Virus record (IMG/VR): IMGVR_UViG_3300044212_000089
DNA length: 64,000 bases
DNA from: an uncultured virus (IMG/VR IMGVR_UViG_3300044212_000089)
Lineage: Duplodnaviria > Heunggongvirae > Uroviricota > Caudoviricetes
Direction: 5' to 3' (one strand)
Shown here piece after piece: positions 2,223 to 60,563 of this stretch. Position 1 is the first letter of the stretch, and each line of letters begins with the position of its first letter. The notes beneath the pieces are model-generated. The model had not been told where the DNA came from. It ran no database searches and worked only from the letters and a program-made list of their open reading frames with translations. Position numbers and translations under genes: made by a program.

Positions 2223-2915
2223 TTGAACAAGCAGCAGCTCGCATCGAAAATCTGGGAATCAGCCAACAAAATGCGCTCCACCATTGAAGCCAACGACTAT
2301 AAGGACTATATCCTTGGCTTCATGTTCTACAAGTATCTTTCCACAAAAGAACTGTCGTTCATGCGCGCCAACGGCGCAACAGACCAGGAGATACGTGGAG
2401 TTCTCAACGAGAAGGATGCTACCGTGGTGAATTATGTGCAGAGTAGCATTGGGTACTTCATTGCATACGATCACTTGTTCACCACATGGGTTTCCACGGG
2501 CAGCGATTTCGACATCGCTAACGTGCGTGACGCGCTTTCGGCCTTTTCCCGGCTCATCGGTAGGCAGCATAAGAAGGTCTTCGACGGCATTTTCGACACA
2601 TTGCAGACCGGGTTGTCGAAGCTGGGTACTTCCGCTGCGGCACAGACCAAGGCGGCACGTGACCTTATTTATCTTATTGATGACATCCCTATGGATGGCT
2701 CGGATGATTACGATGTGCTTGGCTTCATCTACGAATATCTCATCTCGAATTTCGCCGCGAACGCGGGCAAGAAGGCCGGAGAGTTTTATACGCCGCATGA
2801 GGTGTCGGTGCTGATGAGCCAGATTGTGGCGAACCATCTCAAAGACCGCGATCACATCGAGATATATGAAAACAAGACGCAAAATTGGATACCATTTAAC
2901 GTTGCCTGTGCCTAG
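2223..2915 (+). pseudogene. hsdM: Type I RM methyltransferase, N-terminal half, cut by the prophage at codon 216
   Basis: MNKQQLASKIWESAN, YKDYILG and GEFYTP present; ends IEIY just before the expected DPxxGSG motif, then 15 phage-derived codons. Confidence 0.9.
2845..2894. other. attL (core GA at 2868-2869; phage arm 2870-2894)
   Basis: Arm AAACAAGACGCAAAATTGGATACCA is an imperfect inverted repeat (16/25) of the arm at 59615-59639. Confidence 0.85.
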
Positions 2916-3025
2916 TGGTGTCGGTTTTGATTTAGAGGTGTCGCTTTGAATGTCGGCTGTTCTGGCTGGCTTTTTTATTTTAGCAAGGTTCTTTTCTAAA
3001 ATCTGAAAGAAAAGTGAAAAAGTGC

Positions 3026-3057
3026 TTGACGGGGACAAAGTCCCTACTTGCTATATT
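3026..3057 (+). promoter_or_regulatory. MerR-type promoter with dyad operator in the spacer
   Basis: TTGACG-20 bp-TATATT with GGGAC-aaa-GTCCC at 3032-3044, directly upstream of a MerR gene. Confidence 0.7.
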
Positions 3058-3081
3058 GAGATCAGAAAGGAGGTCGACGAT

Positions 3082-3771
3082 ATGAGGCCAAAGGAAATAC
3101 AGAAGAAGCTGGGAATCAATGCTGATCGGATTAAGCTGTTTAAAAGAGAAGGCGTCTTTACACCGGAGAATCCCCCTTCTGGGAATCGCGGGACAGATTA
3201 TACGGAGTCTGACTTCAAGAACCTTCAGTTTCTTGTGGTGCTTACCAAAATGGGTTTGACTTGTAGCGATATACGAAAAATGCAAGAAGGCGATTGCACA
3301 CTTGAAGAAGCAGTCAATTATCGTAAAAACCAGATAGAAGCCGATATGGAGAAGAAACGCAATGCACTGACATTGTTATCAGATCTGCTCCAGAATCAAG
3401 AACAATTTGAAACATTCCATACTGAGCACTATTGGGACATTATCACAGAGAGAGAATCCAAGGGCGAGGAATTTATCGACGTCGAGGATATGTATGGATA
3501 CAGTTCGGTGTCGCTTATTCGCACTGTCAAATGTCCGTATTGCGGAGATGAATCAGAGATTGATCTTGAGGATTATGAGACCGGTACAAGCAGCTACGAT
3601 AATGAAATAGGTATGGGCGAGGATATGGTGTATGAATTCGACACGGAAGATAATCTTGAATGCCTTAAGTGTGGTAGGAAATTTCGGATATCAGGCTGGA
3701 TCAGGGAATATCCAATGGGAGCTTACGATTCAGAAGATATCAAAGTTGATGAATTAGCAGATGATGACTGA
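3082..3771 (+). CDS. MerR-family regulator with C-terminal zinc ribbon
   Basis: N-terminal MerR-like HTH and coiled coil; CPYCG...CLKCG; RBS AAAGGAGG before ATG 3082. Confidence 0.75.
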   Translation: MRPKEIQKKLGINADRIKLFKREGVFTPENPPSGNRGTDYTESDFKNLQFLVVLTKMGLTCSDIRKMQEGDCTLEEAVNYRKNQIEADMEKKRNALTLLSDLLQNQEQFETFHTEHYWDIITERESKGEEFIDVEDMYGYSSVSLIRTVKCPYCGDESEIDLEDYETGTSSYDNEIGMGEDMVYEFDTEDNLECLKCGRKFRISGWIREYPMGAYDSEDIKVDELADDD

Positions 3772-3823
3772 TCAGCTCAAAATCATAGATGAGCAAATAT
3801 TAATGCAAAAGGAGGAACCGACT

Positions 3824-4444
3824 ATGGCAGTTGTACAAGAAGCATTTGACATTCCTGCTGATATCATGACCAAATTGTTGACTGGCGAATATCGTAGGAT
3901 CGGTGGAGTAGTAAGACATGCTGTCGGGCCGCGCAAGGGGCAGATTGTAAAGCATTTGGACCCTGTGGATTTGAAAGAAGCCGAGCAAGCGCAGAGTCTC
4001 GGGACACAGGCTATGAATTTTGCAAAGAAGAATAAGAGAGGATTGATCATCGGTGGCTTGATTACTGGCGCACTCGTAGTGGGTGGAGTTGTCTATCACG
4101 TGATAAAAAATCATGAACCAGCTGTTGTAGCTCATTTCAGAGAATCTTTGCGTACATATATTGACGAGATCAGGGTAGGGAACTTAGATATCGATACTAT
4201 AGAGACTTTGATGGCAGCATTGAATGAGTTGAAACATCATAAGAATTACGAGAAATTTAAATTCGAACTATCTACACAGGAGTTGGATGTCCTTGTAGGA
4301 AGGATTTATGAGTATACCATTAGATTAGCTGAAAATAACAAAGTCGAGCTTACAGAACAAGAACTCAGCAGGACAGACAATTCGATTTTGAACCTGCAGA
4401 ATTATTTACAAACACAAAAACGTATATTCGAAAAAGTGGCTTAA
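3824..4444 (+). CDS. Hypothetical protein with one hydrophobic segment
   Basis: AT-rich ORF; AGGAGG before ATG 3824 (alternative start 3761); GLIIGGLITGALVVGGVVY. Confidence 0.7.
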   Translation: MAVVQEAFDIPADIMTKLLTGEYRRIGGVVRHAVGPRKGQIVKHLDPVDLKEAEQAQSLGTQAMNFAKKNKRGLIIGGLITGALVVGGVVYHVIKNHEPAVVAHFRESLRTYIDEIRVGNLDIDTIETLMAALNELKHHKNYEKFKFELSTQELDVLVGRIYEYTIRLAENNKVELTEQELSRTDNSILNLQNYLQTQKRIFEKVA

Positions 4445-4502: not shown

Positions 4503-6086
4503 CTATGCTTTGATTTCCTGTCCGTTCCGGAAGGTCACGCGTATGTCGTCCTTGGCATGGACGGTGAGATGGTCGACCAGTCCGTTGAAGGCGTCGACGG
4601 AGAATTCCGTCAGGGTGCCGGGCGTTTTCTCGAATGCCTTGAGGAAGTCCTCGACACCGGCTTTCCGGGACTGCGTTTCCTGTATCCTGTCGCTCAGCTC
4701 AGTGATTTCCTTCTTGATCTTGTCGTACCGGGCGGAAAGGTCGTCGTAGCGTTTCTGGTAGTCGGTCTGGTCGAGCGCGGTGTGGGCGTTCTCCGTGATG
4801 TTCTGTTGGACGGCGTCGGCGACGATCTGCGCGTCCTCGATCAGACGCTCGCGTTTCTGCTCCATCTCGTTGGTCTGGAAGAGCAGTCCAAGCATCTCCT
4901 TGCCGTTGGAGATGACCTCGGCTTTCGAGGCGAGGAGCTTGTTCGCGGCTGACAGGAAGGCGGCCTTCACCTCGTCGTCCGTCAAGGCAGGTGTTCTGCA
5001 TTTCTCCCCGTGGTCGTACTTGTGGTTGCAGTGCCAGATGACCTTACGGTATTTGTCGTTCGAGTGCCAGACCTTCGAGCCGTAGAAGGAGCCGCACTCT
5101 CCGCACCGGATCTTGCTGGAGAACTGGTGTACGCCGCTGTGGTATTTCTTCCCCTTGCCGCGGTTCTCCATCTCGCGCTGGACCATGTCGAAGGTCTCCG
5201 GAGGGATGATGGCCTCGTGGTCGCCCTCCACGTAGTATTGCGGGATCTCGCCCTCGTTGACCTTCGTCTTCTTCGTCAGGTAGTCGACGGTGTAGGACTT
5301 CTGCAATAGGGCGTCGCCCTTGTATTTCTCGTTGGAGAGGATGGATCTGACGGTGCTGATGCTCCAATTGTTCTTGCCGCCCGGCGTCTTGATGCCGTCC
5401 GCGGCCAGCTTCTTGGCGATCCCGTTGTAGGTCATGCCCTGAAGGAACATTCGGTAAATGCGTTTCACGGTCTCGGCTTCCTTCTCGTTTAGGACGAGTT
5501 CCCCGTTCGGGCCGCGGTCGTATCCGAGGAACCGGTTGAACGGGACCGTCACCTTGCCGTCCGCGAAACGTTTCCGCTGGCCCCAGGTGCAGTTCTCCGA
5601 AATGCTGCGGGATTCCTCCTGCGCGAGGGAGCTCATGATCGTGATGAGAAGCTCGCCCTTGCCGTCGAACGTCCAGATGTTCTCCTTCTCAAAATAGCAC
5701 TCGACGCCATGATCCTTGAGCTTGCGGATCGTGGTCAGGCTGTCCACGGTGTTTCTGGCGAATCGGCTGACGGACTTGGTGACGATGAGGTCGATCTTTC
5801 CGTCGAGGGCGTCCTCGACCATGCTCTGGAAGCCAATACGCTTCTTGATGCCGGTTCCGCTGATTCCCTCGTCCGTGTAGACGTTCACGAACTCCCAGTC
5901 GTCACGGGATTTGATGTAGTTCGTGTAGTAGTCGATCTGCGCCTCGTAGCTGGTGAACTGGTCGTCATGGTCGGTCGAGACGCGGGCGTATCCGGCGACC
6001 CTGCGTTTTTTCTTCTCGGTGATGGGAGTGGAGGAAAAGCGCGTACGGGACGCCGGGATCGTGGTCACTTTCTTTTGCTGTCCCAA
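4503..6086 (-). CDS. Large serine recombinase
   Basis: YARVST catalytic motif, SRFARN, recombinase domain, CGECG zinc ribbon, coiled coil. Confidence 0.95.
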   Translation of the reverse strand: MGQQKKVTTIPASRTRFSSTPITEKKKRRVAGYARVSTDHDDQFTSYEAQIDYYTNYIKSRDDWEFVNVYTDEGISGTGIKKRIGFQSMVEDALDGKIDLIVTKSVSRFARNTVDSLTTIRKLKDHGVECYFEKENIWTFDGKGELLITIMSSLAQEESRSISENCTWGQRKRFADGKVTVPFNRFLGYDRGPNGELVLNEKEAETVKRIYRMFLQGMTYNGIAKKLAADGIKTPGGKNNWSISTVRSILSNEKYKGDALLQKSYTVDYLTKKTKVNEGEIPQYYVEGDHEAIIPPETFDMVQREMENRGKGKKYHSGVHQFSSKIRCGECGSFYGSKVWHSNDKYRKVIWHCNHKYDHGEKCRTPALTDDEVKAAFLSAANKLLASKAEVISNGKEMLGLLFQTNEMEQKRERLIEDAQIVADAVQQNITENAHTALDQTDYQKRYDDLSARYDKIKKEITELSDRIQETQSRKAGVEDFLKAFEKTPGTLTEFSVDAFNGLVDHLTVHAKDDIRVTFRNGQEIKA

Positions 6087-7858
6087 TGTTTCTCACTCCT
6101 TGTTTTCTTCGTACTTTCGCTGGTTTTCTGCCTGCGTTCCGGCGTGAGGCTATCCCGGATGGCTTTGGTCTGCTTTTCGCGGCGCTCGTCCGTCCATGGG
6201 ATGCCTTCCTTACGGAATTCGTAGTCGCGTTTGACAGTCGAGCCATCTTTGAGATGGAATGTAAGATGCGTCAGCCCACGGACCGAGATGAAGTCGATGC
6301 GTTCCTTGAATGCTTCCTCGCCGAATTCCTCAAGACCCAGCACCTGTGCGATGATTTCCTTCAGATGATCCTCACGCAGGCTTTTCCCGGGATGCGTTTT
6401 CTTGTCGGCGCATGACCAGTAGGCGTTTTTATGTCCGTCTGCCATGGTCGTGGTCTGCTTGCGGTAGTTGCAGTCGCATTCCTCGCATCGGATCTTCGTG
6501 GTGAAGCAGGTGATGTCGCTGCGGGTCGTCGGATGCCGTTTCCTGTATTCGGAGGCTCTTTTCCTGTGAGCGTCCGTCCAGCTTTCCTTTTTCGCGTTCC
6601 GGTACCAGTGGTGTTCAAGAGTGCTTCCGTCCGTGAACTCGAAGATCATGGTCCCGGCCTCGGGTATGGTGATCTGCTTCACGCGTTCACTGAAGGCATC
6701 CTCGTCGAATTCCGGTGTTCCGAGCATCCGGGCGCATTCCTCTTTCAGTACGTCCTCGCGGATGGTTCCGCTCTTGCAATACGGGCAGTTGTTCCTTTTA
6801 TGGGAGGTGCAGGCCCAGAAGGTATATTTCTCGCTGAGCAGGCTCATCTTTGCACGGTTTGTTCTTGTGGAACGGACGAAGCTCCGTCCGCACAGTCCGC
6901 ATTTGATTTTCGTGGAGAAGCAGTTGAGCGTGAGCGCTTTGTTGCCAAAGCAGCCGAGCTCCCTGCGCCGTGCCATCTCAGCCTGTACATAGTCGAATGT
7001 CTCTTTGTCGATGATGGCGGGATGCGTGTTCTCCACGTAGTATTGCTGCAGCTCGCCGTGGTTCTTCTTGACCTTTCCGGTGATGGGATCGGAGACGTAT
7101 TCCTTCTGGTAGAGCATGTTGCCGGTATAGGTGACGTTCGTGAGGATCAGCTTCAGGTTGGAATCCACCCAGCGGTAGCCGCCTCTGGTTTTGATGCCTT
7201 CGGCGGCGAACTCCTTCTCTGTTTCCTGCCGGGATTTCCCGTCAAGGAAGTTCTGGTAGATGCGTCGCACGATCGCGGCCTCCTCAGGGACGATGACCAT
7301 CTCGTCACCTTCCCAGCGGTAGCCGTACACGTTCATATGGCCGTTGGCGTATGGAATGCCTGCCTGCATGCGCTTTCGGATGCCCCATTTCACATTGGTG
7401 GAGATGCTCTCGGATTCGGATTGTGCGAACGAGGCGAGCAGTGTCATCATGACCTCGCCGTCGCCGGACAGCGAATTGATGTGTTCCTTCTCGAACCGAA
7501 CCTCGATGCCCAGGTCCTTGAGATGCCGGACGGTCTCCAGAAGGTCGACCGTGTTCCGGGCGAACCGCGATATGCTCTTGGTGAGGACGATGTCGATCTT
7601 CCCGGCCTCGCAGTCCTCGAGCATTCTCTGGAATTCCGGGCGTCTCGCCGTGCCGGTGCCGCTGATGCCTTCATCGGCGTAGACGCCTGCGTATCGCCAT
7701 TCCGGGTTCTTCTGGGTCAGCTCCGAGTAATAGCTTATCTGCGCGGAGAGGGAGTGGTGAAGCCGTTCGGTCTCCATGGACACGCGGGCGTATGCCGCCA
7801 CCTTTTTCCGCGCCGGAAGAGCCTTGACCTTTGGCTCTATCTTTGTGATTTTCGGCAT
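6065..7858 (-). CDS. Large serine recombinase with duplicated C-terminal zinc-ribbon module
   Basis: YARVSM, SRFARN; two CF(S/T)TKIxCxxC modules. Confidence 0.93.
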   Translation of the reverse strand: MPKITKIEPKVKALPARKKVAAYARVSMETERLHHSLSAQISYYSELTQKNPEWRYAGVYADEGISGTGTARRPEFQRMLEDCEAGKIDIVLTKSISRFARNTVDLLETVRHLKDLGIEVRFEKEHINSLSGDGEVMMTLLASFAQSESESISTNVKWGIRKRMQAGIPYANGHMNVYGYRWEGDEMVIVPEEAAIVRRIYQNFLDGKSRQETEKEFAAEGIKTRGGYRWVDSNLKLILTNVTYTGNMLYQKEYVSDPITGKVKKNHGELQQYYVENTHPAIIDKETFDYVQAEMARRRELGCFGNKALTLNCFSTKIKCGLCGRSFVRSTRTNRAKMSLLSEKYTFWACTSHKRNNCPYCKSGTIREDVLKEECARMLGTPEFDEDAFSERVKQITIPEAGTMIFEFTDGSTLEHHWYRNAKKESWTDAHRKRASEYRKRHPTTRSDITCFTTKIRCEECDCNYRKQTTTMADGHKNAYWSCADKKTHPGKSLREDHLKEIIAQVLGLEEFGEEAFKERIDFISVRGLTHLTFHLKDGSTVKRDYEFRKEGIPWTDERREKQTKAIRDSLTPERRQKTSESTKKTRSEKHWDSKRK

Positions 7859-7886
7859 GGTATCACTCCTTTCGTCTCGTCCATAT

Positions 7887-7913
7887 ATCACTCTGAAACA
7901 GACACATAGCAAG
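7887..7913 (-). promoter_or_regulatory. Repeated phage promoter-like motif, class A (CTTGCTA-N12-AGAGTGAT)
   Basis: One of four copies with identical boxes and spacing; upstream of the recombinases. Confidence 0.7.
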
Positions 7914-7915: not shown

Positions 7916-8080
7916 CTACCGGGGTGACAGTGTGCCGATCACCGGGCTGTATTTCTCGCGCATTCTGGCATCGATGACCGCGTATTCCTCCTCGGTGACG
8001 AGCCCCTGCCCCAGCATCGCGCGGAACATCTCCATGCTGGCCTGATAGAGTTTTTCGCGTTCGAACTGCTCGTCAGTCAT
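7916..8080 (-). CDS. Small SHOCT-like protein preceding the recombinases
   Basis: MTDEQFEREKLYQ...GLVTEEEY; start overlaps the upstream stop. Confidence 0.75.
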   Translation of the reverse strand: MTDEQFEREKLYQASMEMFRAMLGQGLVTEEEYAVIDARMREKYSPVIGTLSPR

Positions 8081-8495
8081 GCCCGTCACCCCCTTTGAAC
8101 CGGTCCTGGATGTAGCAGGCGTGGGAGCAGTACTTGCGGTGGCGGTTTCCATAGGCCGTGAAGGGTTTCCCGCAGCAGGCGCAGGTGAATGTGTAGAACG
8201 CCTTCCTGTTGATGTCGCCGGGGTGGCTGTTCCACCATCTGAGGCGGCAGGCGTCGGAGCAGAACCTCGCTTCCTTCCGACCGGGTCGCTGCGTGAGAGG
8301 TTTCCCGCAGCATTGGCAGTATGACTGGCCCGGCGTGTTTCCTCCATCGGGATCGGCGAGCCTTCCGGCGAGGTCGTTTCGTCTGCAGTAGGCCGATACC
8401 TGGCTTTTGGTGAGCCCGAGCGCACGGGCTATCGCGGCATATCCGTGTCCTTCTTTGCGGAGGCTGCGTATTTGTTCTTTTTGCTCTGTGTTCAT
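8073..8495 (-). CDS. HTH plus Cys-rich zinc-finger protein
   Basis: GYAAIARALGL HTH; CQCCG, FCSDAC, CACCG, YCSHAC; RBS GGAGG. Confidence 0.8.
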   Translation of the reverse strand: MNTEQKEQIRSLRKEGHGYAAIARALGLTKSQVSAYCRRNDLAGRLADPDGGNTPGQSYCQCCGKPLTQRPGRKEARFCSDACRLRWWNSHPGDINRKAFYTFTCACCGKPFTAYGNRHRKYCSHACYIQDRFKGGDGHD

Positions 8496-8550
8496 GAAAA
8501 CACCTCCCGTCGCTTTCCACTGGAGAAAGGGCCGGGGTGTGAGCGGAAAC

Positions 8551-8592
8551 AAAAAGGCCCGCAGGCATTCCGACGAGGGAACGCCTGCGGGC
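8551..8592 (-). terminator. Intrinsic terminator after lysin
   Basis: GCCCGCAGGC stem followed by a T-run on the minus strand. Confidence 0.75.
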
Positions 8593-8608
8593 GTACGGGT
8601 GTGGATGG

Positions 8609-9577
8609 TCATTTCACGCGGATCTTCCAGCCGACCTGGATGAGGTTCACGTTCCTGATGAGCGAGCTGTTGAGCTTCTGGATGGCAGAGACGCTTGTGC
8701 CGTACTTGCTTGCGATGGCCGAGAGCGTGTCGCCGCGCTTCACCGTGTGGTAGGCGGCGGATGGCTTGGCGGCGGATGCTCCTAGCTTCTCGTTGACCTT
8801 TGCCTGCACGGCGTTGTAGTCGTATCCGGCGGCGGTGAGCCTGTTCCTTCGGTCGTCTCCGTTTCCCCATTTCCCGGCGATCACCTCGGAGGCGATCTCG
8901 TCCACGGACTTCTTCGCGGGCGTTGCCGCCGGGGTGCCGCCGGTCGTCGTGCCTTTCGCGTATCCGTTGAAGCCGCCGTTCTTGATCGCAGACGGGTAGT
9001 CCACGTAGGACAGGTCCATGTCGACGTTTCCGCTGATGCCGCTTACGCGTCCAGTGGAGGAATACTGCCAGATGCCGTAGGATCCGGCGTACGTGCATTT
9101 CGAGGCGTACTGCGCGACCCAGTGGGTGTATGCGGTGAGCTTGGAGTCGTCCATCCTCTCGCGGAACCCGGAATTTGTGGAGCCGTAGATGCCGACGAAG
9201 TATCCGGCGGCCTCCATCGTCTCGCAGAAGGCGATCGCCGCCTCCGTGATCCCGGCCTTCGCCGAGGCGGGCTGCGCCTCGTTGTCCATGAAGACCGGGT
9301 ATTCGAGCTGCTTGCCTGTGAGGAGCTGGATGAACCTTTCGGCGTCCGCTTTCCCGGCGGTGGCGTTTACGCATTTCGGGCCGACGAAGTAGTAGGCCCC
9401 GACCGCGATGCCGTTCGTCTTTGCGTCCTTGTAGTTGGCCTCCCATTTGCTGTCCGTGTAGAATCCGTCATCCGAGCCTCCGGCCTTGATGATGGCGAAC
9501 TGGACGCCGGACGCCTTTGCCTTCGCCCAGTCGATGTTTCCCTGCCAGTGGCTTACGTCGATTCCTTTGATGGCCAT
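8609..9577 (-). CDS. Endolysin: GH25 muramidase, Cpl-7-like repeat and LysM
   Basis: GIDVSHWQG, VDMD; EVIAGKWGNGDDR; HTVKRGDTLSAIA. Confidence 0.93.
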   Translation of the reverse strand: MAIKGIDVSHWQGNIDWAKAKASGVQFAIIKAGGSDDGFYTDSKWEANYKDAKTNGIAVGAYYFVGPKCVNATAGKADAERFIQLLTGKQLEYPVFMDNEAQPASAKAGITEAAIAFCETMEAAGYFVGIYGSTNSGFRERMDDSKLTAYTHWVAQYASKCTYAGSYGIWQYSSTGRVSGISGNVDMDLSYVDYPSAIKNGGFNGYAKGTTTGGTPAATPAKKSVDEIASEVIAGKWGNGDDRRNRLTAAGYDYNAVQAKVNEKLGASAAKPSAAYHTVKRGDTLSAIASKYGTSVSAIQKLNSSLIRNVNLIQVGWKIRVK

Positions 9578-9578
9578 G

Positions 9579-9992: not shown

Positions 9993-10020
9993 GTGTAGAC
10001 CTCCTTTGAAAATTGGCATG

Positions 10021-10052
10021 AAAAAAGGCCGTCCGCGCGGTCGCGGGCAGCC
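10021..10052 (-). terminator. Possible terminator between GH18 gene and holin
   Basis: GC-rich hairpin plus T6 on the minus strand. Confidence 0.55.
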
Positions 10053-50292: not shown

Positions 50293-50294
50293 TC

Positions 50295-53200: not shown

Positions 53201-53390
53201 GGTATTCAACATGACGTACAACAAGGAGGGGAAACCGTATGAAGCACCAGACGATTTGGATTCTCCGAAAGTCGCCAGCGACAATTTCACAAGCTATCGA
53301 TATCCAACAGAAGCGCCAAGAAGCGGAATGATGGTAGCCGATGGCAAAGTAACGTTCGGTGAAAAGAAGGACAGCGATTCTAAAAAGTAG
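50295..53390 (+). CDS. hsdR: Type I RM restriction subunit
   Basis: D...IELK, HSAGSGKS, DEAH, FTATP, QTGFD, QTLSRLNR. Confidence 0.95.
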   Translation: MAFTDKTERGFETIIVNWLVEQNGYEQGTNDDYSKEYAVDETRLFRFLNDTQPREMAKLGVNNSDQKKRQFLNRLSGEIAKRGIIDVLRNGVKAYPADLIMFYFTPTENNEKSKQMFEKNIFSVTRQLRYSIDASKLALDLCLFINGLPVVTIELKNHFTGQSTADAVEQYKEDRDPRDTMFSFKRCMVHFAVDDQTVMFCTKLAGKDSWFLPFNKGYNDGAGNPPNPDGIMTDYLWKDILTKWKLSRIIENYAQVVVDEDPDTKKKTVKQIWPRYHQLDCVEKLLTDVKQNGVGKRYLIQHSAGSGKSNSIAWLAHQLIGLEQDGHPMIDSVIVVTDRRILDKQIRDTIKQFMQVKNTVVWAQHSGDLKKAIQDGKRIIITTVEKFPYISQEIGQEHINNHFAIIIDEAHSGQSGRNSANMNLALSGMASDNEMDNEDKINAIVEGRKLVKTASYFAFTATPKNKTEEVFGTPYEEDGEIKHRPFHVYTMKQAIQEGFILDVLKNYTAIDSWYKIAKKVEDDPMFDKKRAQKKLRSFVEGNPDVIAKKAAMMVDHFHEQIIAKKKLNGKSRAMVVTASIPRCIETYYAINKCLADRHSPYKAIIAFSGECKYNGQEPALTSAGLNGFPDAKIPKEFKKDPYRLLVVADMFQTGFDEPLLQTMYVDKPLYDIAAVQTLSRLNRAAPGKDEVYVLDFANKTSTIQDAFSKFYRTTILSGETDPNKLYDLITLMESYQVYDADDVEHVVDLFLGGAERDRLDPLLDPCVATYNELETDDQIKFKSAAKSFVRTYGFLGSILPYGNVDWEKLSIFLNLLIPKLPSPREDDLSEGILSTIDLDSYRNEAQEAVAIKLEDEEAEIAPVPAGKVGHNVEPELDPLSKIIMDFNDMFGNIQWNDADNVQRQILQIPAMVSRDEKYQNAMKNSDEQEARTESERALQKVIFSIMADNMELFKQFQDNPSFKKWLTNMVFNMTYNKEGKPYEAPDDLDSPKVASDNFTSYRYPTEAPRSGMMVADGKVTFGEKKDSDSKK

Positions 53391-53419: not shown

Positions 53420-54349
53420 GTGGAGTTATCCAAAACTGTAAAGGACAAGACATTCGATGATTACTTTACAGAGGTGGAGCATTCCGAGACGATCAGCGGA
53501 ATGGTACGCCCTGGTTCTCTGCGCCTTTTTTGCCTCAACGTCAGAAACGGAAACATCAAATCATCCGATCTTGAGAAATTTACCATGCTCAACATCGGGC
53601 AGTATGTGTTCTCTCGGGCAAAGCAGGAGAACTATCGGAATACAGGCAATTTCGACCTTGTGACACAGCAAGCCCTGAGAGCCATGAGAAAAAGCGCCAA
53701 GGCTCGAGACATTGATGCAGGAGAAACGCTCGGCGAGATCATGGTCTATGCTGTCATGGAAGAAAAGCTTAATGCTCATAAGCTCCTCAGCAAAATCGAA
53801 CTCAGCGCAGATGCTGCGCAGTATGCGAGCGAGGCCGACGGCATTCATTTCCTGTGCAGGGACGGCAAAACGATCCTCTCCAATCAGATGGTATTCGGTG
53901 CGTCGAGCGTCACTGGAGACATCAAGGACGCCATTGACATCGCTTTTGAGAAGATATCTCGTATTGCAAATCACGAGGATGAAGAGCTGCTTCTCGTAGA
54001 GAAAACAGCACTTGATCGCTTCTATGAAGAAGACGACCTGAAAGTCCTGACCAGCTACGTTATCCCGGAGGAGCACAAAAACGCTGCCTACGGTACATCC
54101 TTCGGAGTGTTCCTCGGATATTCTCTTGGCCTGATCCCGGACGGCTATGACGATGACCAGTTCCGGGACCGCATGCATAAGAAAATGATTCGCGACATCA
54201 ACGCGCACGAAGAATACATAGCTCAAAAGATACGCGATGCAAAACTGCAGAATCACTCGTTCTATTTCTTCACGTTGCCTCTTAATCAGGCCAGGGAGGA
54301 AAGTGACTTGATCATGCAGCATGTTCTGGAAGGAGATGTCGACCTATGA
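53420..54349 (+). CDS. hamA: DUF1837 / Hachiman HamA-like protein
   Basis: LGEIMVY..ME..L..KL.SKIEL...DGIH; coupled to a downstream helicase. Confidence 0.7.
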   Translation: MELSKTVKDKTFDDYFTEVEHSETISGMVRPGSLRLFCLNVRNGNIKSSDLEKFTMLNIGQYVFSRAKQENYRNTGNFDLVTQQALRAMRKSAKARDIDAGETLGEIMVYAVMEEKLNAHKLLSKIELSADAAQYASEADGIHFLCRDGKTILSNQMVFGASSVTGDIKDAIDIAFEKISRIANHEDEELLLVEKTALDRFYEEDDLKVLTSYVIPEEHKNAAYGTSFGVFLGYSLGLIPDGYDDDQFRDRMHKKMIRDINAHEEYIAQKIRDAKLQNHSFYFFTLPLNQAREESDLIMQHVLEGDVDL

Positions 54350-57079
54350 CCGTTGAAAAGAGAACACTTGGGTCGGTCATCTTCGCCGGCATCGACAGCA
54401 ATCCATACCTTGGAACACTGTATGCTCGGCTTCTGAAAGGCTATGGCTTGAGTCTCTTCAACTTGAATCAACGAAGCTCGACGGAGTTGTTCAACGCCAA
54501 GGAGAAAACCGACATTTTACGGTTTGCCGACATTCTCTCCAAGTCGAATGATCCAGAGAAGGCAGACGCGCACAAGATATGGGCTCAGGAAATAGCCATA
54601 CTGATGCATGAGATGTATCCGCAGGATTCGCTCGTCAACCTTTACGCCGGAGACGTTTTCTCAAGCGTCGGTAACCACAAGGGACTCGAGCTTGTAAACA
54701 AGGACTATTCTGAGCCGCATGCACTGGAAGAAATTTTCGCACAGTTCAGAGGCGATTACCTCACTATCCCCGCGGAACCTAGCCAGCGGTTCTTCGGAGA
54801 ACAGAAGAACGCCTATGACCATCTGACGGACGACTGCTTTAGCTACTCCGCGCCCACTTCGATGGGAAAATCCTTCATTATGAGGATGTTCATCAAGGAC
54901 GAGATCATGCACGGGGCCCAGAAGAACTATGCGCTCATCGTCCCTACCAAGGCGCTGATAAACGAAGTCCGGGCAAAAGTCATAGACGATCTTGGCGGAG
55001 AAAAGAATACAGAGAAGGTCAACTACCTGAAGCTCCATAACTACAGCGTGGTGACAGCAGCAAGCGACATAGCTCTAGAGGACGATAACCGGAACTTCAT
55101 CCTTGTCATGACGCCGGAGAGACTTCTTTACCTTCTGATAGCGAAGCCTCGCTTTGACCTGGATTATCTGTTCATCGACGAGGCCCACAAACTTTCAGGC
55201 AAGAACAGTCGAGCGCCTTTCTACTACAAAGTAGTCGACAAGCTCGTGCATCGCCAGAAGAAACCGCACTTCATCTTCGCATCGCCGAACATACCGAATC
55301 CGCAGGTCTATCTGAGATTGATGCTCAATGCGGAGGAAGGCGATGAAGACGCTCTTGCAATCACATACTCGCCGGTTGTTCAGATCAAATTTCTTGTTGA
55401 TCTGAAGAAAGGACGAATCGAGGTTTATAACGACCACGCACTTGAAGATCAGTGCCGAATACTTCTCGCCAATGTGCGCGGCAGCGGTATTGAAGTGAAT
55501 GACTTCCTGCTGGCTATCGAAACACAGAACAGGAAACTTTCCAAGGAAAAGCGTAAGCAGAGCATCGTTTACTACAACGGACGAGACAAGGCCATAAGGG
55601 CCGCCCACTCCTTCTATGAGCGGATAAAACCGAATGGCCCGAGAAATGATCCGCTTCTTGAGGCCTTGTCAAAGGACATTCAGGAAGAAGTCCATCAATG
55701 GTACTACCTCGCAGAAATGGTACGTTATGGCATTGCTTACCACATCGGTTATCTTCCGGCATCAATAAGGGCACGGATCGAGGAGCTTTTTAAATCCGGG
55801 AACATCACGGTAATGTTCTGTACCAGTACGCTGTTGGAGGGCGTCAATCTCCCGGCGGACAATCTGTTCATCATGGAGAACAAGATATTCCTCAGCGAGA
55901 TGAATACCATTGATTTCCGTAATCTCATAGGCCGAGTGGGCAGGATCAGCTTCAACCTCTTTGGGAATGTCTACTTTGTAGCGGAACGCAACAGCAAGAT
56001 AACGACAGATGACTATGTACGTATGCTTGGGCAGGAAATTCCAGAGCAGTCGCTTTCTATTGCTACTGATCCGAATGTGCTCAAGAAGGTCGAGAAACAG
56101 TATGTCGCCGATATTCTCAAAAGCGGGAAGTCGGAAATACCACGCCGTGTGAACGCTGATGGCAAAGCTATGCAGAGCGAGGAATCCTATGAGATGATGC
56201 GCAGATTCGCGACTATTCTTCAGGGAGACATTGTTCACGAGCGGGATACGCTGGTGCGTCGTGAATTCAAAGACTTCTTGACGCCAGCCGATGAGGAGTT
56301 CATCCGGGATACCTTCAAAGACGCCGAAGTCAAGCCTGATGACGACATCAATACGTCGGTAGATCAGACAACAAGCCTTATTGCAGCTATCCGAAGGGAG
56401 CGAAACCCGCTGCGTTATCCAGATCTTGTTGATGGGAAGTTCGTATATGACGATGTGCTTGCTTTTCTCGACGAACTTGCAGAAGTGTTCAACTGGGAGG
56501 AGTACGAGGCCGGTACGCTCGGAAAACCATCACTGCGCAGATGGTACGCCGTGATCCTCTGCCAGTGGATGGACGGCGGCGGGTTGAAGTTCATCATGGA
56601 CAGGGCTCTTGAATACCATCAGAACCACCCATACCCATTCTGGATCAACAAGCATGGGTCTCCGATAACGTACAATTACCTTTCCGACGAGCCATCACAA
56701 TGCCGTATTCGGAGACACGCTTGAGGTTATTGAGAACATCATCCTTTACAGCATTTCGAACTATTTCCTTCGATTCTCCAACGAGTACAGGAAAATCAGA
56801 GGAGACGAGGCACTCAACCGGAACGATTGGTATGAATACGTGGAATTCGGTACGACGAATCCGCTGACGATCCTGCTGCAGCGCAGCGGCTTTTCCAGAG
56901 AATCCGCTCGCTACATAAAAGAGCACCACGAGTATGTCATAAGGGACGGTAGCACAGGCCAGCTGAAACTTAGCCCTGCTCTTGCTCGGTGTGGTAATAC
57001 GGATGTACGTAATGAAGTCATATACATACGGCAGAACTCACCGGAGATTTTTGAAGCCGATAATAATGATGAGGGATAA
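54346..57079 (+). pseudogene. hamB: Hachiman HamB-like SF2 helicase, frameshifted near 56684
   Basis: APTSMGKS, DEAH, STLLEGVNLPA, NLIGRVGR; reading continues in the +1 frame (HHNAVFGDTLEVIE...EFGTTN) to 57079. Confidence 0.75.
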
Positions 57080-57084: not shown

Positions 57085-59439
57085 ATGCAGAAAATTGACA
57101 AAACAGACACGCTCAAAACAATCCTGAGTGGTCGCAAGTACACCGTCGATTATTTCCAGCGGGAATACCGGTGGGGGCAGAAGCAGATCGAGCAGATGCT
57201 CGCCGACTTCCAGAGCACATTTGAGGAATTTTATGATCCGGATGATCATGATACGCCGGAAGAAGTCATGAACTATGGCTTTTACTATATGGGATGCATT
57301 ATCTGTACTGGCGGTTCCGTAAAGAAAATCATCGATGGCCAGCAGCGTCTGACCTCGCTAACACTTCTCATCATCTATCTGAACAACCTGCAAAAAGAAA
57401 CTGTCAAGGATGAGAATCTCCTTGTCCCGCTGGATGACATGATCTATTCAAAGGCTTTCAGTAAGAAGAGCTTCAATATCGATGTGGCTGACCGTGGAAC
57501 TTGCATGCAGGCTCTATTGCAAAAAGATGAGACTTATGTGCCAGTGAATGAGAGCTCACAGAATATGCTTGACCGGTATCAGGACATAGAGGACATCTTC
57601 CCTGACGAGCTGAAGGAGGAAGCGCTTCCTTACTTTATTAACTGGCTGATAGAGAAGGTCCTCCTTCTGGAGATCGACACACCGTCTGACGACGAAGCAC
57701 ACACGATTTTCCTGACAATGAATGACCGAGGCCTGAGTCTGAACAGCGCCGAGATGATGAAGGCTTACATCATCCAGCAGGTTGAAGAAGCTGACCGCAT
57801 TGAGGTAAATCGGAAGTGGCAGGACAACATCAACCGTATCAAGAACGCTTCTTCTTACGATACGAGCGGCATGGTGAATACGCAGGACGTTGAATTCATC
57901 TCTATCTGGCTTCGCGCAAAATATGCCAATTCCCTGCGAGATACCAAGCGCGGCGCTAAAGATGAGGATTACGAACTTCTCGGCGACAAGTTCCATACCT
58001 GGGTACGCAACAACGCCCGGACGGCGATGGGCCTTGTAAAGCCGAAGGACTACAAGGAATTTGTTCTCACTGAAATGACACGTGTCACTGATATCTATCT
58101 TCGGATGAAAGGCTATGGCAGCAAGCTGACGCCCGGATATGAAGAGGTCTTCTACAATGCAAACCGCGACCTGACCTACCAGACCATGCTTGCCATCGCT
58201 GCCATTAAAAATGACGACACGGACGACATCGTACAGAAGAAAATACAGATGACCGCAAAGTTCGTGGACGACTTTGCCACCATCCGAATCCTGAATTTCA
58301 AGAAGGTTAACTGGAACACGAATAAGTATTTGCTGTTTCATGCGATGCAGGATATCCGCAATGAGGACTGTAAGACGATCGGCATGGTCTATGTCCGTAC
58401 ACTCCGCCGTATGGACGTGACCGTCGAGGGAATCACCAGGTTCAGTCTGAACCGGTTCTCCGGACGTTACATGCTTCACATCCTCGCGCGCTTCACTTCC
58501 TATGTGAATGTGCTGATGGGCAATCCGTCGCATTTCGAGGAGTACGTTGACCGCAAGCGTCAGGGAAACACTTACGATATTGAGCATATCCTTCCGGACA
58601 AGTACGAGGACTACGAGGACAGCTTCACCGACTACGAGGATTTCGAATCCACCAGGAATCAGATCGGAAACCTGATCCTGCTCACCCGAGACAAGAACAG
58701 AAGCTATCAGGCAATGAAATACTCCGAGAAGGTCCAGAAGTACATGGGAGACAACATCCTTGCTCAGGCGTTGAACGACACAGCTTACACGAACAATCCG
58801 AAATTCCTCACGGTCGTTAACGAGTACGGCTTTCATGCGATTCCTGACTTCAGTAAGCAAAGCATCGCAGACCGGGCTGAGATCTATCTGAGAATGGCAA
58901 GTGACATCTGGAATCCGGATGCCATTAAGGAAATCGTTGGTGGATGGGCCGATGACGATGAGAAGGACTTCTTCAAGAACGAGAAGGGCCGTGAATTTAC
59001 AGTCGGCTATGCAGAAAGAAGCTGGCCAGACGCGCTGAAATACGGATTCCTGTCCGCGAACCTTGGCGGCAGCGGGAAATCTATTTATAACGTTCAGGTC
59101 GGAGACACGGTTTATTGCCATATCGCTGGATATGGCTTTGTAGGTATTGGCGAATGCACATCAACCGCTGTGCCGATGAAGAACTTCAAGGTGATGGTCG
59201 ACGGCACTTCAACTCCTGTTGCAGACGCGCCGTGGGAATCCGAGGAATCCAAGGAGAAACTCGATCCCAACAAGGAAGTATTTATCGGAGTTGCATGGAA
59301 GAAATATGTGACGGATATTAATGGTGGCTACTGGGAGAAGGGAATGACGACAGTCCCGCTTGTAGCCTACATGCTTAATGATAAGACGACGCATCAGAAG
59401 GTCAGAGATCATTTCGGATACACCGACAGTGCCGATTAA
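57085..59439 (+). CDS. DUF262/DUF1524 GmrSD-like nuclease with extra C-terminal domain
   Basis: FQREYRW, IDGQQRLT, MNDRG, IEHILP, IGNLILL. Confidence 0.88.
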   Translation: MQKIDKTDTLKTILSGRKYTVDYFQREYRWGQKQIEQMLADFQSTFEEFYDPDDHDTPEEVMNYGFYYMGCIICTGGSVKKIIDGQQRLTSLTLLIIYLNNLQKETVKDENLLVPLDDMIYSKAFSKKSFNIDVADRGTCMQALLQKDETYVPVNESSQNMLDRYQDIEDIFPDELKEEALPYFINWLIEKVLLLEIDTPSDDEAHTIFLTMNDRGLSLNSAEMMKAYIIQQVEEADRIEVNRKWQDNINRIKNASSYDTSGMVNTQDVEFISIWLRAKYANSLRDTKRGAKDEDYELLGDKFHTWVRNNARTAMGLVKPKDYKEFVLTEMTRVTDIYLRMKGYGSKLTPGYEEVFYNANRDLTYQTMLAIAAIKNDDTDDIVQKKIQMTAKFVDDFATIRILNFKKVNWNTNKYLLFHAMQDIRNEDCKTIGMVYVRTLRRMDVTVEGITRFSLNRFSGRYMLHILARFTSYVNVLMGNPSHFEEYVDRKRQGNTYDIEHILPDKYEDYEDSFTDYEDFESTRNQIGNLILLTRDKNRSYQAMKYSEKVQKYMGDNILAQALNDTAYTNNPKFLTVVNEYGFHAIPDFSKQSIADRAEIYLRMASDIWNPDAIKEIVGGWADDDEKDFFKNEKGREFTVGYAERSWPDALKYGFLSANLGGSGKSIYNVQVGDTVYCHIAGYGFVGIGECTSTAVPMKNFKVMVDGTSTPVADAPWESEESKEKLDPNKEVFIGVAWKKYVTDINGGYWEKGMTTVPLVAYMLNDKTTHQKVRDHFGYTDSAD

Positions 59440-59614
59440 ACCTTTCAACGATAGCCATACTTTTTAACGATTGCAGAATGGGGGTGTCGCTTTTGACCAC
59501 AGAAGCCACGGCAACATATACATACAGGGCCACAGACGCGATCCCGCTCTATGCCCTGAAAAGCAGAAAAGCCCAGAAACAGCATGGTTTCCGGGCTAAC
59601 AGCACGTACGGGCA

Positions 59615-59665
59615 TTGTATCAAAGATGAGGTCTTGATAGACCCTTGTTGCGGATCCGGCGCATT
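59615..59665. other. attR (phage arm 59615-59639; core GA at 59640-59641)
   Basis: TTGTATCAAAGATGAGGTCTTGATA mirrors the attL arm; followed by GAC CCT TGT TGC GGA TCC GGC. Confidence 0.85.
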
Positions 59666-60563
59666 TCTAGTAAGAGCTATGACTGATGCAATGGATGATT
59701 GCGACACAGATTTTGAACGCCGCCATGTCAAAGAACATCAAATTTATGGCATCGAATATGAAGAGGGCGCTTTCGGGCTTTCATCTACCAACATGCTTAT
59801 TCATGGAGATGGAAACAGTAATGTCGTTAAAGATTCCATGTTTAACAGAGGAGACTGGATTCGTAATAAAAATATAGACATCGTGCTTATGAATCCTCCT
59901 TATAATGCCACGAAGAATCAATGTGACCCAACTTATGTGAGGAAATGGAACTCCAAAAAGAAAGCTTCCGATCCCTCAAAAGGTTTCCACTATGTAGAGT
60001 GGGTAGCTCGACAGATCTCTACGAATGCAAAAGGAGGAGACGTTCCTACACATTGCCGTATGGCGGTGCTTCTTCCAATGCAATGCGCGATTGGTAATTC
60101 TACCGCAGTAAAAGATTTCAAAAAAAAGATGCTGAGCCATTATACCCTTGACGCCGTGTTTTCATTGCCAACAGAAGTATTTTATCCTGGTGCGTCAGCC
60201 GTTGCCTGCTGTATGATCTTTGACCTATCCCAAAAACATGAGCGAGCCGATCGAGACACTTTCTTCGGGTATTTTAAAAATGATGCTTTCATAAAACGAA
60301 AGGGAGTTGGACGTGTCGAGACGACGGATGAAAGCGGGAAAAGCAACTGGGAAGGAATTGAGCGAGAGTGGCTGTGGCTATATCGAAACAGATGTTCGAA
60401 ACCAGGTTTGTCAATTACCCATAAAGTGGGATGGGACGATGAATGGCTCGCCGAAGCATACATGCAAACCGATTACAGCACTCTTTCCATTTCTGATTTT
60501 CAACAAACAGTGAATGACTATGTAGCATACCTTGTGCAAGAAGGTAAAATTTATGAAGATTAA
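59640..60563 (+). pseudogene. C-terminal half of an N6-adenine methyltransferase, BcgIA-like
   Basis: Begins at DPCCGSG; IYGIE...NMLIHGDG, MNPPY, EWLAEAYMQTDY. Confidence 0.8.

What the first reader, a model, noticed from the sequence alone, without database searches (positions are those of the whole stretch)
2223..60563. Prophage joins halves of two different methyltransferases at the SAM-binding motif; excision would build a chimeric MTase
Seen: the attL core GA (2868-69) follows ...HIEIY, and the attR core GA (59640-41) starts DPCCGSG. Rejoining is in frame (215+307 = 522 aa). From family knowledge: the left half is a type I HsdM (MNKQQLASKIW), while the right half has BcgIA-like signatures (NMLIHGDG, EWLAEAYMQTDY), is AT-richer and is followed by a BcgIB-like S gene. 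Neither missing half is in the window. Inference: an integrase that targets motif-I codons shared across MTase families can delete, rearrange or shuffle RM loci.
Basis: partly seen in the sequence, partly recalled or inferred. Interest (0 to 1): 0.85.

Follow-up and report, generated by a model that had tools for sequence, protein, structure and literature searches.

The report
Prophage flanked by two different methyltransferases
A 57-kb prophage that always inserts at the cofactor-binding motif of methyltransferase genes is flanked here by the front of one restriction-system gene and the back of a different one, so such phages may reshuffle bacterial defence genes, unless the join is an assembly error.

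Summary
A 56.8-kb siphovirus prophage (2868-59639) ends on both sides at a GA dinucleotide, and independent relatives end at the same bases. It carries two tandem large serine recombinases (LSRs) and defence cargo: a type I RM system, Hachiman and GmrSD.

The left flank (215 codons) is 99% identical to the start of an intact 862-aa type I HsdM (gene A). The right flank (307 codons) is 99.7% identical to the end of an intact 638-aa type IIG, BcgI-like enzyme (gene B). A and B share only about 21% identity, so the flanks come from two genes. No natural 522-aa fusion was found.

Phages with the same arm sit at this position in 22 of 30 distinct contexts, in HsdM, MmeI-family, BREX PglX, type III Mod and RlmL/THUMP genes. 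Two control insertions have matched halves.

The reciprocal junction proteins (B-front|phage, phage|A-back) exist in public data, one on a contig of the same length as the one holding this window's genes. My best reading is recombination between two related prophages at A and B (about 0.5). An assembly path error across two prophages is not excluded (about 0.33), and no reads were available.

This scan noted the same motif-targeting phage family earlier on other DNA. I found no paper describing it.

The parts
1..1011 (+). 3' part of an NADH-peroxidase-like gene, host flank at 62% GC
   Evidence: Pfam Pyr_redox_2/Pyr_redox_dim. The best named relatives are Bifidobacterium sp. MAG proteins at 81% and 73% identity.
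1649..2053 (-). 5'-nucleotidase fragment in a low-GC islet next to gene A
   Evidence: Pfam PF06189, profile positions 136-246 of 302 only. 1012-2222 is 48% GC.
2223..2867 (+). A-N: the first 215 codons of an 862-aa type I HsdM (gene A)
   Evidence: HsdM_N plus N6_Mtase positions 2-46. 99.1% identical to P0001 residues 1-215. P0001 passes TIGR00497 hsdM above the cut-off and matches PADLOC MTase_I end to end.
2868..2869 (.). attL crossover dinucleotide GA
   Evidence: G002 identity starts at 2868. Three different host flanks all abut GAAAACAAG.
2868..2950 (+). Phage left arm (P'). It adds 15 codons and a stop to A-N and holds two GGTGTCGSTTT motifs (2917-2927, 2937-2947).
   Evidence: The arm is conserved in G001, G002, G003 and 34 loci from the collections. 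Motif count is 3 in the window against 0.06 expected.
3022..4444 (+). MerR-family regulator (3022-3771) and a gene of unknown function (3761-4444)
   Evidence: Pfam MerR_1 for the first; no family for the second.
4503..6086 (-). Large serine recombinase 1 (527 aa)
   Evidence: Pfam Resolvase + Recombinase + Zn_ribbon_recom. YARVS motif. Its 90% cluster includes proteins named Bifidobacterium longum. Closest PDB entries are 3g13 and the SPbeta integrase 9dxh.
6065..7912 (-). Large serine recombinase 2 (615 aa), 44% identical to LSR1
   Evidence: Same three Pfam domains. The pair is conserved in G001 (84% and 86%), L086 and L088.
8073..31080 (-). Phage late genes: GH25/LysM lysin, tail genes, tape measure, HK97 capsid, ClpP protease, portal, TerL, ParB-methylase, TerS
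   Evidence: Pfam. 99.8% identical to G002 up to 27931 and 75-82% to G001.
31201..33110 (+). IS3-family insertion sequence inside the prophage, a simple insertion
   Evidence: Pfam HTH_Tnp_2, rve. Absent from G001; TG...CA ends and a CCCC target duplication.
34250..45068 (-). Phage early and replication genes: SNF2, HNH, primase DUF3987, PolA, ssDNA-binding protein, DUF2800 nuclease, Xre-like
   Evidence: Pfam. 98.3% identical to G001 over 33111-48921.
46904..53390 (+). Cargo: complete type I RM system (HsdM 668 aa, HsdS 460 aa, HsdR 1033 aa)
   Evidence: Pfam. Collinear in the G001 prophage except for the S gene, 48921-50164.
53420..56724 (+). Cargo: Hachiman (HamA plus helicase HamB). HamB is frameshifted here.
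   Evidence: Pfam HamA, DEAD/Helicase_C. A 1-bp insertion near 56689 gives 792 aa against 910 aa in G001.
57085..59439 (+). Cargo: GmrSD-type restriction enzyme
   Evidence: Pfam GmrSD_N and GmrSD_C. 99% identical in G001.
59478..59639 (+). Phage right arm (P). It holds an in-frame 54-codon leader that reads into B-C and a third GGTGTCGCTTT motif (59483-59493).
   Evidence: ORF 59478-60563. The leader frame is also open in G001 and G132, and in P0247. Motif.
59640..59641 (.). attR crossover dinucleotide GA, first two bases of the Asp codon of DPCCGSG
   Evidence: Similarity to G001 ends at 59644.
59640..60563 (+). B-C: the last 307 codons of a 638-aa type IIG (BcgI-like) REase-methyltransferase (gene B)
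   Evidence: N6_Mtase positions 46-243. 99.7% identical to P0255 residues 332-638. P0255 matches PADLOC REase_MTase_IIG.
60553..61053 (+). Half-size specificity subunit of gene B (166 aa)
   Evidence: Pfam Methylase_S. PADLOC Specificity_II positions 180-329 of 341. The same 166-aa length is seen beside intact B on other contigs.
61100..64000 (+). Second, distantly related phage-like region (SNF2 and others). It is the native neighbourhood of gene B.
   Evidence: The SNF2 is about 40% identical in amino acids to the prophage's SNF2. Its homologues share a 150,294-nt contig with intact B.

Best explanation
Positions 2868-59639 are a temperate siphovirus prophage. Its integration module is a conserved pair of large serine recombinases (LSRs) plus an attP with a GA core inside a perfect inverted repeat. 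It inserts at the GA of the Asp codon that opens the SAM-binding motif (hydrophobic residue | D-P-x-x-G-x-G) of methyltransferase genes. This splits the gene between strand beta-1 and the glycine loop.

Shown: here the left flank is the front of type I hsdM gene A and the right flank is the back of type IIG gene B. These are two unrelated members of the N6_Mtase superfamily.

Inferred: one integration cannot give mixed flanks. The arrangement most likely arose when two related prophages, one at motif I of A and one at motif I of B, in inverted orientation on the same replicon, underwent homologous recombination. That would exchange their flanks and invert the segment between them, leaving A-N|phage|B-C here and B-N|phage'|A-C elsewhere.

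Consequence (by geometry): integrase-mediated excision of this prophage would leave an in-frame 522-codon A-N::B-C hybrid gene.

Inferred from how these systems work: disrupting the methyltransferase disables type I, IIG, BREX and type III systems without leaving restriction unopposed, and the phage brings its own defence cargo.
For: Boundaries and core. Natural attP forms: L063 and L071.

Different genes:
- Left half is 99.1% identical to P0001 residues 1-215. Right half is 99.7% identical to P0255 residues 332-638.
- Left half has no match to B. Right half is about 21% identical to A.
- A is a type I HsdM and B a type IIG enzyme by HMM.

No natural fusion:
- Among proteins of 168-538 aa, the best match to the right half is 79% identical.
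- Neither 90% cluster holds a 522-aa member: 11 of 11 and 6 of 6 members were read.

Targeting:
- 22 of 30 distinct attL contexts lie in methyltransferase genes. 16 were HMM-tested (5 HsdM, 5 MmeI family, 4 PglX, 1 RlmL/THUMP, 1 type III Mod) and 6 were judged by eye.
- 7 of 11 attR-like contexts open with DPxxGxG.

Controls with matched halves:
- G001: both halves hit the same intact homologues with contiguous coordinates.
- G132: PglX profile 1-318 and 317-1209 on one strand, 61 kb apart.

The cargo belongs to the phage: the G001 prophage is collinear over 4504-59644.

Reciprocal junctions:
- P0253 is B residues 1-331 plus a left-arm tail. It is seen on a 209,659-nt contig, the same longest-contig length as the records of this window's own proteins.
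- P0247 is a right-arm leader plus A residues 216-862.

Mosaic phage: the left 25 kb is 99.8% identical to G002. The right 26 kb is 98-99% identical to G001, while the left part is only 75-82% identical to G001.

The right flank is B's native context.
Against: - No reads or long-read assembly could be examined, and the window's own assembly is not held. Physical linkage of A-N to B-C through one prophage therefore rests on a single assembled contig.
- The four junction types seen in public data are also exactly what two ordinary lysogens, or one unrearranged double lysogen, would give.
- P0247 lies on a different, 59,467-nt contig and may come from another strain.
- That P0253 lies on the same contig as the window is inferred from equal contig length, not seen directly.
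- Phage mosaicism is common and need not date from this event.
- 8 of 30 attL contexts and 4 of 11 attR-like contexts could not be assigned to a methyltransferase.
- Neither integrase activity nor activity of the hybrid was tested.
Confidence: 0.5

Rival explanations
1. Assembly path artefact, or a mixed population of two isomers. The organism, or two strains in one sample, carries two related prophages: one in A with both A halves and one in B with both B halves. The assembler crossed from one prophage to the other inside a stretch they share, giving a contig with mixed flanks.
For: - All four junction types exist in public data.
- The second left junction appears to lie on the same contig.
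- The prophage is a mosaic of a G002-like left part and a G001-like right part.
- Relatives of this phage occur in many hosts and contexts, so mixed samples are plausible.
- One MAG (G007) holds two left and two right arms on four contigs.
- No reads were available.
Against: - The only internal repeat that might invite a wrong join, the IS3 copy, is a clean insertion with a target duplication. The DNA on both sides of it is contiguous in G001.
- The window has no long internal repeats.
- A 57-kb prophage assembled straight through suggests that it was not a collapsed repeat.
- The left junction with LSR1 is also seen on separate Logan contigs of up to 18,400 nt.
Confidence: 0.33
2. Site-specific rather than homologous exchange. 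The integrase, with or without its directionality factor, recombined att sites of two different prophages or used a secondary site, and later events restored a whole prophage between A-N and B-C.
For: All junctions share the same GA core and similar arms, so sites of different prophages are chemically compatible.
Against: By the established rules of serine integrases, attL x attR exchange between two prophages gives a phage-free hybrid attB plus an attP. It does not give a complete prophage between mixed flanks, so several extra steps would be needed. None of this was tested here.
Confidence: 0.07
3. The phage integrated once into a hybrid A-N::B-C gene that already existed.
For: A hybrid site would still carry a usable attB, with A's left half-site, GA and B's right half-site.
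Against: No 522-aa or similar hybrid protein appears among the relatives of the right half at 168-538 aa, where the best hit is 79% identical. None appears in either 90% cluster. The front of B and the back of A are each found joined to phage arms, which this reading does not predict.
Confidence: 0.05
4. The two halves are one diverged gene, and this is an ordinary insertion.
For: The Pfam coordinates are complementary, 2-46 and 46-243.
Against: Each half is 99% or more identical to a different intact protein, of 862 aa and 638 aa. Those two proteins share only about 21% identity over about 219 residues.
Confidence: 0.01

Closest known systems
Streptococcal ICEs with triplets of serine integrases inserted in hsdM (Ambroset et al. 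2016, PMC4701971; passages read)
   Same: Mobile elements with several tandem large serine recombinase genes that disrupt the type I methyltransferase gene hsdM and leave direct repeats of only 2-8 bp.
   Different: Those are conjugative elements with three integrases, described as specific for hsdM, mutT or traG. In the passages I read there is no statement that the site is the SAM motif or that other methyltransferase families are hit. Here the element is a phage with a pair of integrases, at least five target families, and mixed flanks.
Multi-targeting large serine recombinases (Durrant et al. 2022, PMC10083194; passages read)
   Same: [quoted passage not shown]
   Different: Their multi-targeting clade is marked by DUF4368, which Pfam did not find in either LSR here. 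The word methyltransferase does not occur in the paper and methylase does not occur. It reports no enrichment of targets in or near defence genes.
Gene-splitting serine-integrase prophages such as SPbeta in spsM and A118 in comK (recalled; the SPbeta integrase structure 9dxh is a PDB hit)
   Same: A prophage sits inside a coding sequence at a 2-bp core, and excision restores an open frame.
   Different: Those have one fixed target gene, and excision restores the original gene. Here the targets are a protein motif shared by many families, and excision would create a new hybrid gene.
Chromosome inversions and deletions by recombination between resident prophages (recalled from work on Streptococcus pyogenes and E. 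coli O157; not read here)
   Same: Two similar prophages act as long repeats for homologous recombination.
   Different: Here both prophages would lie at the same codon position of paralogous genes, so the exchange produces in-frame hybrid genes.
SCCmec CcrA/CcrB recombinase pair (NCBIfam models are the best hits, below their cut-offs)
   Same: Two different large serine recombinases encoded side by side next to the attachment site.
   Different: Scores are far below the family cut-offs (148 against 900 bits), the target is not rlmH, and whether the two proteins act together here is untested.

Membership tests
Large serine recombinase (serine integrase) prophage | Integrase with Resolvase catalytic domain, Recombinase domain and zinc ribbon domain | tested here: met
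   Both 4503-6086 and 6065-7912 carry all three Pfam domains above their cut-offs. Both have the YARVS serine motif.
Large serine recombinase (serine integrase) prophage | Short att sites with a 2-bp crossover core and imperfect inverted symmetry, and no long direct repeats at the ends | tested here: met
   Only GA is shared by attL, attR, attP and the target. attP reads GTCTTG ATA GA AAA CAAGAC.
Large serine recombinase (serine integrase) prophage | A free attP form exists | tested here: met
   L063 and L071 join right-arm and left-arm sequence across GA. These are relatives, not this exact phage.
Large serine recombinase (serine integrase) prophage | Recombination directionality factor and demonstrated attP x attB activity | not testable with these tools
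   No directionality factor was identified. Biochemistry is needed.
Type I RM methyltransferase HsdM (left half, gene A) | HsdM_N domain followed by an N6_Mtase domain, and a match to the hsdM equivalog model | tested here: met
   The fragment has HsdM_N plus N6_Mtase positions 2-46. The intact allele P0001 scores 317 bits on TIGR00497 (cut-off 242.75) and matches PADLOC MTase_I over 1-857 of 857.
Type IIG / BcgI-like REase-methyltransferase with separate specificity subunit (right half, gene B) | Match to type IIG REase-MTase models, with an adjacent type II specificity subunit | tested here: met
   P0255 matches PADLOC REase_MTase_IIG (E 1.9e-51 and 5.1e-43). The S protein matches Specificity_II positions 180-329 of 341.
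Type IIG / BcgI-like REase-methyltransferase with separate specificity subunit (right half, gene B) | N-terminal nuclease domain and direct similarity to BcgI A and B subunits | not tested
   No Pfam family covers P0255 residues 1-296. A D...ExK-like string was seen only by eye. No BcgI sequence was compared; the resemblance in subunit sizes is recalled.
Multi-targeting LSR clade of Durrant et al. 2022 | [quoted passage not shown] | tested here: met
   At least five methyltransferase families flank the same left arm. Three target families (type I HsdM, MmeI-family, type IIG) are confirmed for elements carrying LSR pairs 51-100% identical to this one: window, G001, G002, L086, L088.
Multi-targeting LSR clade of Durrant et al. 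2022 | DUF4368 domain typical of that clade | tested here: not met
   Pfam reports only Resolvase, Recombinase and Zn_ribbon_recom for both LSRs.

The most novel reading that the evidence does not exclude
A widespread phage lineage uses a two-protein serine integrase to home in on the SAM-binding motif shared by the methyltransferases of type I, IIG, III and BREX defence systems. This disarms the host's methylation-based immunity and installs the phage's own. Because several such prophages can sit at the same codon of paralogous genes, recombination between them followed by excision swaps gene halves in frame. That would be a natural domain-shuffling engine producing new hybrid restriction-modification enzymes, and this window would be a caught intermediate.
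Probability: 0.25. Interest if true: 0.85.

Novelty: new variant of a known kind. Interest (0 to 1): 0.7.

Why it matters
If the join is real, it shows a concrete route by which phages rewire bacterial immunity:
- They knock out host restriction or BREX systems at a motif the host cannot easily change.
- They replace those systems with phage-borne defences.
- They create substrates that fuse halves of unrelated methyltransferases in frame.

That bears on how the great diversity of restriction-modification enzymes arises.

The integration module is also of practical interest. It is a serine integrase pair with readable attP and attB sites whose target is defined at the level of a protein motif.

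If the join is an assembly error, the lesson still matters. Promiscuous prophages that share arms are a trap for assemblers, and mixed flanks need confirmation by reads.

Tried and rejected
- **Own genome.** A search for the missing halves was impossible because the assembly is not held.
- **IS3 as the recombination or misassembly joint.** Rejected. It has a CCCC target duplication, and the flanking DNA is contiguous in G001.
- **Cargo island as a separate element, with the true attR near 45 kb.** Rejected. The G001 prophage is collinear through the cargo up to 59644.
- **G003 as a second chimeric case.** Its hsdM front has no matching back anywhere in that draft genome. However, it holds only an arm scar, with no integrase and no phage DNA within 80 kb, so it is a decayed remnant and not informative.
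- **Right-arm scans.** The 19-mer gave one viral hit, with a flank that is not a methyltransferase.
- **The 209,659-nt contig.** Neither it nor a second prophage joined to the front of B was found in the viral or metagenome scans.
- **Host identification by genome search.** 0 of 401 and 0 of 399 sampled genomes matched the left-flank protein at E <= 1e-80. 3 of 10 genomes of G001's family gave weak matches only.
- **Named records.** There was no plasmid match. The nearest named phages are Acutalibacteraceae phages at 78% identity over 11% of the query.
- **Literature.** Five searches found no paper describing phage integration at the SAM motif across methyltransferase families. PMC11318856 and PMC12934698 were checked by passages and did not bear on it.

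Full report
**1. The observation**

GA at 2868-2869 follows ...GAGATATAT (..HIEIY). GA at 59640-59641 opens GACCCTTGTTGCGGATCCGGC (DPCCGSG). ORF 2223-2915 is an HsdM front that runs 15 codons into foreign DNA. ORF 59478-60563 reads from foreign DNA into a methyltransferase back. Pfam puts the left piece at N6_Mtase profile positions 2-46, with HsdM_N before it, and the right piece at positions 46-243. The two pieces have 215 and 307 codons in the same frame.

Two independent relatives fix both boundaries to the base:
- Virus record G002 is 99.8% identical to the window from 2868 to 27931, but is preceded by a different gene.
- Genome G001 carries a collinear element whose similarity stops at 59644.

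The phage arms form a perfect inverted repeat around the core, GTCTTG ATA GA AAA CAAGAC. Two metagenome contigs (L063, L071) carry the uninterrupted right-arm/GA/left-arm junction, which is attP.

**2. What lies between the two GA cores**

The element is one prophage of 56.8 kb:
- A MerR-like gene, then two tandem large serine recombinases (LSRs) of 527 and 615 aa, 44% identical to each other. Both have the Resolvase, Recombinase and zinc-ribbon domains and a YARVS motif.
- Lysin, tail, capsid, portal and terminase genes.
- An IS3-family insertion.
- Replication genes.
- A 14-kb block at 49% GC holding a complete type I RM system, Hachiman and GmrSD.

The low-GC block is phage cargo, not a separate island. 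The G001 prophage is collinear with window 4504-59644. It is 75-82% identical over the left 26 kb and 98-99% over 33111-59644, apart from the specificity gene.

The IS3 copy (31201-33110) is a clean insertion with TG...CA ends and a CCCC duplication. The DNA on either side of it is contiguous in G001, so it is not a recombination or misassembly joint.

**3. The two flanks belong to different genes**

- The left half is 99.1% identical to residues 1-215 of P0001, an intact 862-aa protein that continues IEIY|DPTSGSGSLLL. P0001 passes the hsdM equivalog model above its cut-off and matches a PADLOC type I methyltransferase profile end to end.
- The right half is 99.7% identical to residues 332-638 of P0255, an intact 638-aa protein that reads ...NKNSRVL|DPCCGSG. 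PADLOC calls P0255 a type IIG restriction enzyme-methyltransferase.
- The 166-aa gene that follows matches the second half of a 341-position 'type II specificity subunit' profile.
- A and B align at only about 21% identity over about 219 residues. The left half has no match to B.
- Neither missing half is in the window.
- The right half is AT-richer, 42.9% against 50.4% GC.

Among proteins of 168-538 aa, the best match to the right half is 79% identical. Neither 90% cluster contains a 522-aa member; all 11 and all 6 members were read.

**4. Targeting of the motif is general**

The 19-base left arm occurs in 53 loci: 11 viral, 9 genome and 33 metagenome. Of these, 34 carry the extended arm, and the rest look like chance matches. 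With the window and G001, this gives 30 distinct integrated contexts:

| Target | Contexts |
|---|---|
| Type I HsdM | 8 |
| MmeI family | 7 |
| BREX PglX | 4 |
| RlmL/THUMP RNA methyltransferase | 2 |
| Type III Mod | 1 |
| Unassigned | 8 |

Sixteen of the 22 methyltransferase assignments were tested with profile models. Six rest on short flanks judged by eye.

The HsdM fronts all stop at N6_Mtase profile position 45-46. The exception is G001's front, which stops at position 53 and belongs to another subfamily.

On the right side, 7 of 11 arm-bearing contexts open with DPxxGxG. These are the window, G001, G132, L180, L031, L091 and P0247. The other four are L021, L099, L116 and L032.

Three further elements with diverged arms interrupt B-like genes at the same codon. 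Two of them carry the same LSR pair.

The right arm itself encodes ...KDEVLI before the core, which mimics the beta-1 strand. tblastn of B extends six residues into the arm.

My survey agrees with it independently.

**5. Ordinary insertions have matched halves**

- In G001, both flanks hit the same intact homologues with contiguous coordinates. The front aligns to subject residues 5-210 and the back starts at 210-211, at 50-61% identity.
- In provirus record G132, PglX profile positions 1-318 and 317-1209 lie on one strand, 61 kb apart.

The window is therefore the exception among the three cases where both flanks could be examined.

**6. Where the missing halves are**

Exact look-ups show that this window's proteins are recorded on a 209,659-nt contig. 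P0243 and P0265 differ from the window's proteins only by L instead of M at TTG starts.

- The cluster of the right ORF also contains P0253, which is B residues 1-331 joined to a left-arm tail (ENKTQNWIQFNVACA, one residue different from the window's arm). Its longest contig is also 209,659 nt.
- The cluster of the left ORF contains P0247, which is a variant right-arm leader joined to A residues 216-862, on a 59,467-nt contig.
- Intact B shares a 150,294-nt contig with close homologues of the window's right-flank SNF2 and 123-aa genes. The right flank is therefore B's native neighbourhood.

**7. Explanation**

A single attP x attB event cannot give mixed flanks. The simplest account is two related prophages, one at motif I of A and one at motif I of B, in inverted orientation on one replicon, followed by homologous recombination between them. 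This leaves A-N|phage|B-C, as in the window, and B-N|phage'|A-C.

It fits several observations:
- Both reciprocal junction proteins exist.
- The front of B, with its phage arm, is apparently on the same contig while the back of A is not. That is expected if the contig starts inside the second prophage.
- The window's phage is a mosaic.

The same data equally fit an unrearranged double lysogen, or two strains, whose two prophages were cross-joined by the assembler. Both isomers could also be present in a population. I could not obtain reads or the rest of the assembly.

I put real recombination at about 0.5 and an assembly path error at about 0.33. Integrase-mediated exchange and a pre-existing hybrid gene are minor alternatives.

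**8. Function (inferred)**

Cutting the gene between beta-1 and the glycine loop should abolish SAM binding. In type I, IIG/IIL, BREX and type III systems the methyltransferase is needed for target recognition or is fused to the nuclease. Disruption should therefore disable the whole system without leaving restriction unopposed. This follows from established knowledge of these systems and was not tested here.

The phage supplies its own type I RM, Hachiman and GmrSD, although the Hachiman helicase is frameshifted in this copy. Excision of this copy would by geometry create an in-frame 522-codon hybrid. The hybrid keeps A's N-terminal domain and FYTP motif and B's catalytic core, but lacks B's N-terminal 331 residues. 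Whether it would be active is unknown.

**9. Comparison and novelty**

- Serine-integrase elements in hsdM are known for streptococcal ICEs with integrase triplets (PMC4701971, passages).
- Multi-targeting LSRs are known (PMC10083194, passages). That paper does not mention methyltransferases, reports no enrichment near defence genes, and its multi-targeting clade carries DUF4368, which is absent here.
- Five literature searches found no description of phage integration at the SAM motif across methyltransferase families, or of mixed-flank prophages that would yield hybrid methyltransferases.

I rate this a new variant of a known kind.

The host is probably related to Bifidobacterium. The left-flank NADH peroxidase is 81% and 73% identical to Bifidobacterium sp. 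MAG proteins, and members of the LSR1 cluster are named B. longum. The host was not identified further.

Noticed in passing
window 2917-2927, 2937-2947, 59483-59493: The motif GGTGTCGSTTT occurs three times in the window, against 0.06 expected. All copies are on the + strand and lie within 160 bp of the two att cores. Similar copies sit beside the arms in G001, G003 and L086. It may be a binding site for an accessory protein such as a directionality factor or regulator.
   Followed up: partly
window 59478-59639: The phage right arm holds an ATG-started 54-codon leader that reads in frame into the captured methyltransferase back. The frame is also open in G001, G132 and P0247. The leader ends ...KDEVLI, mimicking the beta-1 strand, so a leader-fused C-terminal fragment might be expressed.
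   Followed up: partly
window about 56689 (gene 54346-56724): The Hachiman helicase gene has a 1-bp insertion relative to G001 (GACGAGCC against GACGACC). This truncates it to 792 aa instead of the 909-910 aa of most cluster members.
   Followed up: yes
window 31201-33110: An IS3-family element is inserted in the prophage between the small terminase gene and the replication module, with a CCCC target duplication. It is absent from G001.
   Followed up: yes
window 2868-59639 compared with G001 and G002: The prophage is a mosaic. 2868-27931 is 99.8% identical to virus record G002. 33111-59644 is 98-99% identical to the prophage of G001, whose left part is only 75-82% identical. G001's chromosome shows no similarity to the window's host flanks, so near-identical phage modules occur in unrelated hosts.
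   Followed up: partly
window 61100-64000: A second, distantly related phage-like region (SNF2 about 40% identical in amino acids to the prophage's SNF2) begins about 50 bp after the specificity gene. It accompanies intact gene B on another contig, so B sits next to an older phage remnant.
   Followed up: partly
L034/L048 (G003:C32, about 133,601): Eubacterium pyruvativorans carries an hsdM front joined to about 80 bp of the left arm, but there is no integrase or phage DNA within 80 kb and no matching hsdM back anywhere in the draft. This is a decayed scar showing that such sites suffer deletions.
   Followed up: yes
L022, L026, L031, L032 (G007): One metagenome-assembled genome holds two left arms and two right-arm-like ends on four contigs, with different flanks. 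This suggests two such prophages in one bin.
   Followed up: partly
L062: One context is a type III Mod gene cut after ...IKCIYI, where DPPY (the catalytic motif IV) would follow rather than motif I. The DNA target seems to be 'hydrophobic codons + GAYCC', whichever motif it encodes.
   Followed up: partly
window 48921-50164: The specificity gene of the cargo type I system is the only part of the right 26 kb that differs from G001. This is consistent with swapping of target-recognition domains.
   Followed up: no
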